Part shown: positions 16,813 to 59,759 of the stretch, in pieces
How the letters are laid out: every line of letters starts with the position of its first letter
Position numbering within the stretch: the stretch's first letter is position 1
From: Paraspadella gotoi
Taxonomy: Eukaryota > Animalia > Chaetognatha
Assembly (NCBI GenBank): GCA_051294375.1
Contig: CM119266.1
Span: 24,572,312-24,636,311 of the forward strand
Direction: 5' to 3'
Length of the DNA stretch: 64,000 nucleotides
The notes under the pieces: generated by a model
The model's input: the letters and a program-made list of their open reading frames with translations, nothing else
Database searches by the model: none
What the model was told of the DNA's origin: nothing
Program-made: the position numbers and the translations under genes

Positions 16813-19800
16813 TCATTCCGGCGCGCCCCACTCGGCCGCTTTCTTCTGTCGCTCCAAAAGACGCTTCGACTTCATTCGTCGATTTTGAAACCAGATTTTC
16901 ACCTGAAAATCATATCATATTTATAAAAAAAAAATTGTCTCGATGATCAGGAGAGAAAATAGTACATTTTGAAATGGGACATACCTGTCTTTCCGTGAGG
17001 CTTAGAAAATAAGCCAGTTCTAATCTCCGTTTACGGGTGATATAAGTGTTTCTCAAGTATTCTCGTTCAAGTTCCTGAAAGATAAAAACGATTTTTTTTT
17101 TATTAAATTTTTTACTTGTTATTGAAAGAAAACTTGTAAGTTTATTACAGTAAAATTTGGACCTGAACTCAATTTCAATCAATCTGTTTGCTTTTTTTTT
17201 GGAGCGAACCATTGGACTCCCCGTGATTAAAATACAGTATTATAAAATGCAATGGCACATTAAAACTCCCGACTCACTTTTTTTATAGCATATTTAATAC
17301 ACATTTACATTGCCAGAGGACGTCCTTTTCATACTCTGTCCAATGTTGTTGATCGAAAAACCTTAAATTTTTTTTCACTCACTTTGATTTGAAATCTCGA
17401 GTAAGGGACCCTCTTTTTCCGTTGGCCGGGAATTTTGGGCTGAGTATTTGCCGATGCTGCCGCCGCCACCGCCGCTGCCGCCGCCGCAGCTGCACGGGGG
17501 AGGAAAAAAGAGAGAAAGAGAAAAAAAAAGAGGTAAGATTTTTTTTTTCCTCCATCGGTTTATCGTCGCTCGGATAATTAAAGGACCAGTAAAGTTTGTG
17601 AGCCTTTAAAGACAGTCTTTCGAGGCGGTAATTTGCGGTTTATAGCTTGTATGTAAAATGGTTGGTCAGGGACACGACGCGCCGGCTGTTTTCTCTTTCC
17701 CTTCTCTTTTTTTTTTCTTTTAATTTTGTCAGGGGTCTTTTTCAGTCTGATCCAAATACGTGCTGCCAATTAGGGAAGTACTTATATAATATATATTAAT
17801 AATATATTAATAATAAAATATAGGTAAATATTAACAGTGGGTTTTCGAAGTTGGGGTACTCCTTCGCATTTCCTAATCATGTTTAATCTCTCAACAGAAA
17901 CATTTTATATTAATATTTATCAAATCTCAAAATACTACCTTTGACTTATAATCTTCTCCGCTCAAATTCTGATTAGATTCTGTTTTGATTCAGATTCGAA
18001 AATTCAGACATTTATATTGAATTGACCTTGGAGTAAGAGAGAAAGAGAGAGAGAGAGAGAGAGAGAGAGAGAGAGAGAGAGAGAGAGTGTTGGAGGTCGA
18101 GAGGGCGGAGCAAGTTTCAAGCTTGGTTGCGTTTTTTAGACCAAAAGTCGAGAAATGAAGGTGAGAGGAGGTGCAGCGTCACTGCAGGTGCAGATTGACG
18201 CGCATGGTTGAATTCGGGGAGATAAATTGCTTATAAACTCTGACAAGCGAATGCCAAGCAATCTAGCAATCTTGCTTGACTGCCCAACTGCCTCGGTATA
18301 TCTGGCCGACCGAATTCAATTTCCTTTCTTTTCGCTCTTCTCTCCTTCGGATTGACCTTCTTTCCTTGATTGAAATTCCGCTGGCATTCTCGCCAGCCAA
18401 TCGAGCTTACATCCGGGTTTTTCAAAGCCAAGTGGCGTTACATCCGGATTTTTTCTAGCCAATCGACGTTACATCCGGGTTTTTCCTTGAATTTCATTTC
18501 AGTTTTAACTTAAATGTATTCCATCTCGTTACTAACTGGGAATCGTCTTCTCTAGATTTTAAACACGAAAAACGAAAGCTAATCACGATAACAAAAATAA
18601 AATCGAAAACCTGACGATTTCTGTTAAAATCTATAGATTATTATCATAGAATTGTCGAATTAAAAATAGTTGTGTTCTTCTTCTAAAATGTTATCTCCCA
18701 CACCTGTTATTCCGCCTTACTTAGCATTCCCCGCCCCCTTAAACACCTTTTCATCTTGCCACCTGACTCATACCACTTCTCCATGTCAAGCTTTACCACC
18801 TCCTGTCCCCATTCCTCCCTTCCCCTCCCCCACCCCCGAGGGGGGAGTCACCTCTCTCGACCCCCGCGACCCTTTTCTTTTCTTTTTACGGCGCGCAACC
18901 ACGAAAACCGTCTAATTCCAACAACTTTCTTTTTCGATGCTTTAGTCACCATTACTTTATCTGCTATTTTACTATGAGGCACTAGATTTTATTGTTCGTT
19001 TTATTGGAACGCGGTAGACCCGCCGGAACAACAGCCCCCCCTCGCCATTCCTCATTCTGCTCTCTTTCTTTTAGCATTCCCCGGGTTAGAGAGAGAGAGA
19101 GAGAGAGAGAGAGCTGAAAAAAAAACCGGGCAGACTGGCCTCGTTTCGCAACTGGGTTGTGTTCTCACGGAATAGTAAATAGATACCGTTTTTCTTTTTC
19201 CGATTTAAAAAAAAGTCATTCTAACCTAAAATTTATGCATATTTTTCTGCTGGTTTTAAACATTTATCTTTTATTCATAATAATATTAGAGAAAACGAGT
19301 GTACATAATATAAGTCAAAAGATTGCTTATTATATTAATTTAATTATTATATTATTTTCATTTATTTATGCTAAAATCAGGTCGTATGATTTTTTCGCTG
19401 TTCGTGTTCAATGCTGACTGCTGACAGCAGAGGGCGTGGAATGGAATCAGTCATGCGCGCCGGAAGAAATTGGGTCTTTGAGCAGAGAAATTAAAAAAGG
19501 GAGAAGGCGAAGAAAACGGGAGGCGGAAGTGAAAGTGAAGTGAAGCGAAAGTGAAGTGGGCAAAAGAAATAGGGCAAATTAAAAGGGAGAGAACGAAAGT
19601 TTAAAAGAGGAGGGATAACTTAAAATTGAAAAAATACTAAAGCTACTAATGAGGATTATTTCAAGAAGCCGTTTAATAAATATAAATCTCACGTTAGTCT
19701 TAAAAAGTAAGTAATATATATATAAGCGATATACTTTCTTTACAACTCAAATCAACAATCCATTTCTTGTTCCTGATAAGGGCTTGATTCATCTTCAGCC

Positions 19801-59271: not shown

Positions 59272-59759
59272 TCACAGAATCATTTGGCGAAATCGCGCGC
59301 GGTGAAGTAAACGCTTTCTCTTCATTCGACGATTTTGAAACCAGATTTTCACCTGTGAACGCAGGATACGAAAATAATTATAAATATAGTATATAGTGAC
59401 TTAAATACCGACTCTAGGGGGCCTCAAAAGATTAAATGTACTAAAAATACCAAATCTCATTTTGATTTTCTTAGTTATCTTTCTCCTGTTTCTTATTTCA
59501 TTCAATTATTTCTTTCATATTCTCATTCCCAGTCTTCCTTTCCTCACCTGTCTCTCTGTAAGACTGAGATAATAGGCCAACTCCCATCTTCTTTTCCTCG
59601 AGACATAAGAATTAATAAAAAACTCTTTCTCCAATTCGGCGATTTGATATTTCGAGTAAGGGACTCGTTTCTTCCGATTTTGACGCGAGGCGGCGGCGGT
59701 GGCAACGGCTGCTGCGGTGGCGGTGCGCGGGGCGGCGGACTCCTCGGGCTGGTCTGTTA
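59272..59759 (-). CDS. Posterior Hox (Abd-B/Hox9-13 class) gene 2, partial; exons complement(59548-59759, 59272-59352); upstream exon(s) not identified
   Basis: ...[57 protein letters not shown]|gtgagg...cag|[26 protein letters not shown]. The 5' acceptor at 59759 is inferred (phase 1, as in gene 1). Confidence 0.92.

What the first reader, a model, noticed from the sequence alone, without database searches (positions are those of the whole stretch)
16813..59759. Two linked, same-strand posterior Hox genes that look like a lineage-specific sister pair
Seen: the two reconstructed homeodomains are identical at 46/60 positions. They share unusual signatures: RKKRVPYS arm, QI at positions 12-13, ELAY(F/Y)LSLTERQ, C-terminal KRLL, and a poly-Ala stretch just before the homeodomain. 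The first 23 nt of the helix-3 exon are identical, including wobble positions. Established: most arthropods have one Abd-B and lophotrochozoans typically have Post1/Post2. Val at position 6 is typical of vertebrate Hox13, while RWELAxYLxLTERQ recalls nematode php-3/Abd-B. Inference: an independent tandem duplication of a posterior Hox gene with a mixed signature, retained in linkage.
Basis: partly seen in the sequence, partly recalled or inferred. Interest (0 to 1): 0.8.

Follow-up and report, generated by a model that had tools for sequence, protein, structure and literature searches.

The report
Arrow-worm tail Hox gene duplicates
These are two neighbouring body-patterning (posterior Hox) genes, one of which matches a named arrow-worm gene, so they are most likely part of the already published tandem expansion of tail-end Hox genes in arrow worms (chaetognaths) rather than a new duplication.

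Summary
Two minus-strand posterior-class homeobox genes have homeodomains identical at 46 of 60 positions and a 23-nt identical exon start. A public contig, probably RNA, skips both homeodomain introns of the downstream gene B.

Gene B is the orthologue of a named Spadella cephaloptera gene. The probe set labelled Sce-postD in PMC12852818 reads to gene B's residues across homeodomain and tail (by eye; one probe matches 24/25). The window is therefore chaetognath DNA, a phylum whose tandem expansion to five clustered posterior Hox genes is published (PMC12460157).

The pair is not young or exclusive. Gene A has 87%-identical counterparts in unnamed metagenome records, and a third related type exists (P0174). 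All group together, apart from Abd-B/php-3, Post1-like and Hox13 (93.5/81). Whether A and B are direct sisters is unresolved.

Caveats: Post2 and named PostA/B were not in the tree; gene A's first exon, expression and published name were not established; linkage crosses four assembly gaps. What is left: gene A fits none of Spadella postA-D by the published residues, and the trio shares a diagnostic motif.

The parts
24986..26099 (-). Gene B exon 1 (1,114 nt, starts at ATG; Ala/His/Ser-rich N-terminus; ends just after a Trp, phase 1 donor)
   Evidence: Open frame and GT donor; N-terminal and late-exon probes labelled Sce-postD read to the same residues (by eye)
17383..17489 (-). Gene B exon 2 (poly-Ala linker, homeodomain residues 1-14)
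   Evidence: joint to exon 3 in an X1 contig; published probe matches 24/25
16985..17074 (-). Gene B exon 3 (homeodomain residues 15-44)
   Evidence: both flanking introns skipped in one 870-nt X1 contig
16813..16902 (-). Gene B exon 4, coding part (helix 3, tail, stop); transcript continues into a 3' UTR
   Evidence: X1 contig covers 16700-16900
59548..59810 (-). Gene A homeobox exon (linker and homeodomain residues 1-44); likely phase-1 acceptor at 59810, alternative ATG at 59802; upstream exon not found in the window
   Evidence: Pfam Homeodomain E=1.1e-10; best PDB hit Abdominal-B; 87%-identical P0001/P0002 read through at the same intron
59272..59352 (-). Gene A last coding exon (helix 3, short tail, stop)
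   Evidence: splice inferred from GT-AG and frame, not from reads

Best explanation
The window holds two intact posterior-class (Hox9-13/Abd-B-like) homeobox genes of an arrow worm, likely two of the tandemly duplicated posterior genes of the published chaetognath Hox cluster, which would act as DNA-binding transcription factors patterning the rear nerve cord, hindgut and post-anal tail. Shown: the gene structures, splicing of gene B's homeobox, gene B's match to a named Spadella posterior gene, and the grouping of A, B and three unnamed records. Inferred: an ancestral chaetognath posterior gene duplicated locally at least twice to give the A, B and P0174 types, before the split between this species and the sources of P0001/P0002. 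Each kept the canonical recognition helix and N-terminal arm and so would bind Abd-B-type TTTA(T/C) sites (established knowledge, recalled), while diverging in helix 1, linker and tail. Expression in the tail end is shown for Spadella postC and postD in PMC12852818 and is carried over to this species by orthology only. Gene A lies 5' of gene B and would be the more posterior gene under collinearity (untested).
For: The eight Sce-postD half-probes spanning homeodomain and tail translate by eye to gene B's residues, including the tail that differs from gene A; N-terminal probes do likewise. One probe matches at 24/25 with 0 of 100 shuffles matching. An X1 contig skips both homeodomain introns. 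PMC12460157 reports five posterior genes in a collinear 2.4-Mb cluster with interspersed non-Hox genes, ascribed to tandem duplication. The 52-domain tree groups A, B, P0001, P0002 and P0174 at SH-aLRT 93.5 / UFBoot 81. Y36 occurs in only 3 of 87 other stretches, all in that group, and by eye also in the Sce-postB probes. Splitting A and B between Abd-B/php-3 and Post1 or Hox13 costs 19-21 log-likelihood units.
Against: The split placements are not formally rejected (p-AU 0.064 and 0.053), and group support is moderate. No Post2, acoel or named chaetognath PostA/B sequence was available for the tree. I could not see the published alignments or gene tables, so neither gene is mapped to PostN1-5 by sequence. 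A second probe failed at up to 3 mismatches (by eye 4 synonymous differences). P0001, P0002 and P0174 are unnamed, so their chaetognath origin is inferred. X1 is only guessed to be RNA. Gene A's first exon was not found, and four gaps lie between the genes.
Confidence: 0.88

Rival explanations
1. A and B are a recent, species-level sister pair or are kept alike by gene conversion, as the 23-nt identical run suggests.
For: 24 of 44 degenerate codons are identical against 16.6 expected. The Spadella orthologue of B differs by eye at three wobble positions within that run while A and B do not. An A+B group without P0174 has the same likelihood as the best tree in the 27-domain set.
Against: A is 39/44 identical to P0001/P0002 but 31/44 to B. 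B has an intact Spadella orthologue with its own tail. Intron number differs. Self-comparison lists no A-B nucleotide block of 150 nt or more. Other homeobox contigs in X1 match the same exon start. The 52-domain tree pairs B with P0174 (93.2/68).
Confidence: 0.06
2. A and B descend from different ancient posterior genes (for example one Abd-B/Post2-like, one Post1-like) and resemble each other by convergence or conversion.
For: p-AU 0.053-0.064, not below 0.05. PMC12852818 finds chaetognath postA-D scattered and poorly resolved. Post2 was not in my tree.
Against: Likelihood cost 19-21, and bp-RELL and c-ELW exclude these trees. Shared rare states V6, K29 and Y36.
Confidence: 0.04
3. Gene A is a truncated, non-functional copy, or its linkage to B is an assembly artefact.
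For: No first exon was found in 59803-64000. Four gaps and about 10 kb of duplicated or folded-back sequence lie between the genes; a further fold-back lies upstream of A.
Against: Intact frame, canonical splice sites and an 87%-identical domain with the same intron in other records. Gene B's own first intron is 7.5 kb, longer than the 4.2 kb left upstream of A. Published chaetognath posterior genes are clustered.
Confidence: 0.06

Closest known systems
Spadella cephaloptera postD / postC (PMC12852818)
   Same: The probe set labelled Sce-postD reads to gene B's residues in homeodomain, tail, linker and N-terminus.
   Different: Synonymous differences and a diverged mid N-terminus indicate another species. 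The paper's text gives Y20 to postC and V21 to postD, whereas the probe-table postD and gene B have Y20 and L21, so gene B is postD by the probe table but postC by the text. Gene A (K18, F20, F21) fits neither description.
Paraspadella gotoi PostN1-PostN5 in the 14-gene Hox cluster (PMC12460157)
   Same: Several linked posterior genes from tandem duplication, with non-Hox genes interspersed. The tree text lists PostN3, N4 and N5 on adjacent lines (topology not reliably readable).
   Different: No sequence-level mapping was possible; which PostN genes A and B correspond to, and whether the window is this species, was not tested.
Arthropod Abd-B and nematode php-3
   Same: Posterior-class K3, P7, Y8; gene A 42-43/60 identical; best PDB hit is Abd-B.
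   Different: They form a separate group in the tree and lack V6, K29 and Y36. The Tyr shared with C. briggsae PHP-3 is at position 37 and is missing in other php-3-like domains.
Lophotrochozoan Post1 (label recalled; records are named only Hox-D9-like or hypothetical) and vertebrate Hox13
   Same: I13 (A, B), A14 (A) and Y20 (B) occur in Post1-like domains; V6 occurs in Hox13.
   Different: Identity is only 36-40/60 to Post1-like and 29-34/60 to Hox13; neither groups with A and B in the best trees.

Membership tests
Posterior-class Hox (PG9-13 / Abd-B-like) | ANTP-class homeodomain with posterior residues (K3, P7) and placement among posterior Hox domains | tested here: met
   inside the posterior group at 98.9/71
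Chaetognath postC/postD (gene B) | Sequence orthology to the named Spadella transcript, inside and outside the homeodomain | tested here: met
   (by eye); one search missed at 3 mismatches. The C-versus-D label is ambiguous
Spadella postA-D (gene A) | Published diagnostic residues: Y20 in postA, B and C; R18 in postC and D; V21 in postD | tested here: not met
   Gene A has K18, F20, F21 against the text; the alignment figure itself was not visible
P. gotoi PostN1-5 | Sequence identity to a PostN gene and position in the published cluster | not testable with these tools
   Supplementary table too large to read; cluster map is a figure; no genome held
Chaetognath posterior Hox | Expression in posterior nerve cord and post-anal tail | not testable with these tools
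   Reported for Spadella postC/D and P. gotoi PostN4; here only a spliced contig of B
Abd-B / php-3 | Grouping with Abd-B and php-3 domains | tested here: inconclusive
   Separate in the best trees, but a forced grouping with php-3 is not rejected (p-AU 0.24)
Post1 | Grouping with Post1-like domains | tested here: inconclusive
   Separate; forced grouping p-AU 0.31
Post2 | Grouping with Post2 domains | not tested
   No Post2 sequence was recognised among the proteins returned
Vertebrate Hox13 | Grouping with Hox13 beyond V6 | tested here: inconclusive
   29-34/60 identity; separate; forced grouping p-AU 0.27

The most novel reading that the evidence does not exclude
Chaetognaths carry a phylum-specific subfamily of at least three posterior Hox paralogues (A, B and P0174 types) marked by V6, a basic run at 28-31 and Y36. 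Gene A is a conserved member missing from the Spadella postA-D set. That would give the chaetognath-specific motif that PMC12852818 says postC and postD lack, and a way to reconcile the postA-D and PostN1-5 names.
Probability: 0.5. Interest if true: 0.35.

Novelty: already known. Interest (0 to 1): 0.2.

Why it matters
The independent expansion of posterior Hox genes in arrow worms is of real interest, because it parallels chordates and both groups have a post-anal tail, but it is in print (PMC12460157, PMC12852818). What remains is book-keeping for specialists: a shared motif for three paralogues, a probable postC/postD label mismatch between one paper's text and its probe table, and a gene (A) without a Spadella name or known expression.

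Tried and rejected
Nematode php-3/nob-1 pair: my first guess. PMC11603191 restricts nob-1 to part of Caenorhabditis and gives clade I/II nematodes a single Hox9-13; dropped once the Spadella probes matched.

No whole genome is held, so the rest of the scaffold could not be scanned. No third homeobox was found in the window by tblastn with four domains. No upstream exon of gene A was recognised.

Three protein searches and one representative search listed no named chaetognath protein and none I recognised as Post2; only the top 120-150 hits were shown. The metagenome contig scan stopped at 36 of 64 parts and gave 2 loci, neither of the A or B type.

No holder on record as RNA was listed. Reads were laid only on gene B's homeobox region, so gene A and the exon 1-2 joint of B are untested by reads.

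A full-text search for three motifs found no relevant paper among 5 listed (listing only). Three look-ups of earlier findings returned nothing. Rfam found only one tRNA, no Hox-cluster microRNA. The listed Sce-postC probes (15 pairs) do not cover the homeodomain, so they could not be tested against gene A. No fold was run; it would add nothing for a canonical homeodomain.

Full report
Observation. A six-frame scan finds homeobox pieces at two places, both on the minus strand. Gene B has four exons (26099-24986, 17489-17383, 17074-16985, 16902-16813), GT-AG introns and 466 residues. Gene A has two visible exons (59810 or 59802 to 59548, and 59352-59272). The domains are identical at 46 of 60 residues and 130 of 180 bases, and the helix-3 exons share 23 bases. 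An 870-nt contig of run X1, whose RNA status is a guess, skips both homeodomain introns of B with one mismatch. Gene A's splicing is inferred from GT-AG sites, frame, and read-through at the same place in P0001 and P0002. No third homeobox was found in the window.

How special the likeness is. Gene A is 43/60 identical to ordinary Abd-B domains, so 46/60 alone says little. Among 87 distinct stretches (positions 1-44) extracted from the 248 proteins then held, I13 occurs in 20, K29 in 6, V6 in 5 and Y36 in 3. Only the combination V6, K29, Y36 is distinctive. The poly-Ala is missing from A's closest counterparts. The 23-nt run has p about 0.013 under local codon usage but was picked after the fact, and contigs of other homeobox genes in X1 match the same exon start. 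In favour of a conversion hint, the Spadella orthologue differs by eye at three wobble sites there. I treat that as weak.

Identity. The HCR probe table of PMC12852818 (supplement 2, read whole) lists probes for Spadella cephaloptera posterior genes. Read by eye against the window's plus strand, the eight half-probes labelled Sce-postD that span homeodomain and tail give the same residues as gene B, including the tail that differs from A. Probes at the N-terminus and at the end of exon 1 match too, and they tile straight from exon 1 into exon 2. I tested 2 of the 50 half-probes by tool: one matches at 24/25 with none expected by chance; the other missed at 3 mismatches (four synonymous differences by eye). 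Gene B is thus the orthologue of a named chaetognath gene, from a related species that I did not identify. The paper's text assigns Y20 to postC and V21 to postD (section 16), while the probe-table postD has Y20 and L21, so the label may be swapped. Gene A (K18, F20, F21) fits none of the four descriptions. The Sce-postB probes give a clearly different domain, though with Y36 (by eye).

What is published. PMC12460157 (passages; supplement 1 text; review-file passages) reports 14 Hox genes in Paraspadella gotoi, five of them posterior, in a collinear 2.4-Mb cluster with 15 interspersed non-Hox genes, as a prime example of tandem duplication. PMC12852818 (passages) shows postC and postD in the posterior nerve cord, hindgut and tail, and says they lack clear chaetognath-specific motifs. 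Its preprint (passages) gives the same residues. A search from 2024 onward listed 4 papers, these three and one on rotifers. The alignment figures and gene tables, which bear directly on naming A and B, could not be read. Matus 2007 and Papillon 2003 were not read.

Relatives and tree. P0001 and P0002 (unnamed ENA records) are 39/44 identical to A and 33-34/44 to B, while A and B share 31/44. P0174 is a third type, 45/60 to B and 41/60 to A, with R18 and V21 as in the text's postD. I built a tree from 52 domains: A, B, three partial records and a selection from the 188 distinct full-length domains. Post2, acoel and named PostA/B sequences were absent, and the Post1 labels are recalled. A, B, P0001, P0002 and P0174 group at 93.5/81, with B beside P0174 at 93.2/68. 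In a 27-domain test, A+B without P0174 is as likely as the best tree. Splitting A and B between Abd-B/php-3 and Post1 or Hox13 costs 19-21 units (p-AU 0.064, 0.053). Forced links of the whole group to php-3, Post1 or Hox13 are all allowed. One lineage-restricted group is favoured; direct sisterhood and the outside affinity are unresolved.

Linkage. The genes lie about 33 kb apart (ATG of B to stop of A), across 4 of the window's 9 gaps. A block at about 39.3-47.4 kb recurs at 47.4-56.4 kb at 88-94% identity, and 34.6-36.9 kb folds back at 36.9-39.1 kb at 95%, together at least 10.3 kb of second copies. These abut gaps and are probably uncollapsed haplotypes or joins (inference); high structural polymorphism is reported around Spadella Hox1 (PMC2997562, abstract only). 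Linkage is likely, given the published cluster, but not shown by reads.

Mechanism. Both proteins keep the canonical arm and recognition helix and would bind Abd-B-type sites (recalled knowledge). Gene B has a Trp 24 residues before the domain that may serve as the Pbx/Exd contact (inference). By orthology B would pattern the tail end, and A probably acts alongside it. The origin is most likely repeated local duplication early in chaetognath history.

Verdict. A real pair of posterior Hox paralogues from a published expansion: already known, interest 0.2. The best remaining lead is the three-member motif and the unnamed status of gene A.

Noticed in passing
window:5580-7694 (+): Intronless 705-codon open frame of a Upf1/senataxin-type helicase (Pfam AAA_11, AAA_12) with an acidic tandem repeat near 7100-7290; a non-Hox gene 9 kb from gene B, possibly a retrocopy.
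   Followed up: partly
window:690-1055 (+): Two exons of a thioredoxin/PDI-family gene with a WCGHC active site (Pfam Thioredoxin).
   Followed up: partly
window:60134-60206 (+): tRNA-Lys(TTT) gene 330 bases upstream of gene A's homeobox exon, on the opposite strand.
   Followed up: no
window:39269-47383 and 47416-56387: About 8-9 kb direct duplicate at 88-94% identity, bounded by 25-N gaps; probably two haplotypes placed in tandem.
   Followed up: partly
window:34612-39084 and 62778-63999: Two long fold-backs (arms of about 2.2 kb and about 600 nt, mostly 95% or more complementary) next to N gaps; assembly artefacts or palindromic elements.
   Followed up: partly
run X1, loose ends at window 16864 and 16871: Contigs of at least two further homeobox genes match the helix-3 exon; one continues by eye much like the tail read from the Sce-postB probes, so it may be a postA/B-type gene.
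   Followed up: no
PMC12852818 supplement 2 versus section 16: Probes labelled postD carry the residues that the text gives to postC; only 15 of 30 postC pairs are listed. Possible label swap.
   Followed up: partly
P0174 / P0181: Third paralogue type whose homeodomain reads without interruption in its contigs, unlike A (one intron) and B (two).
   Followed up: partly
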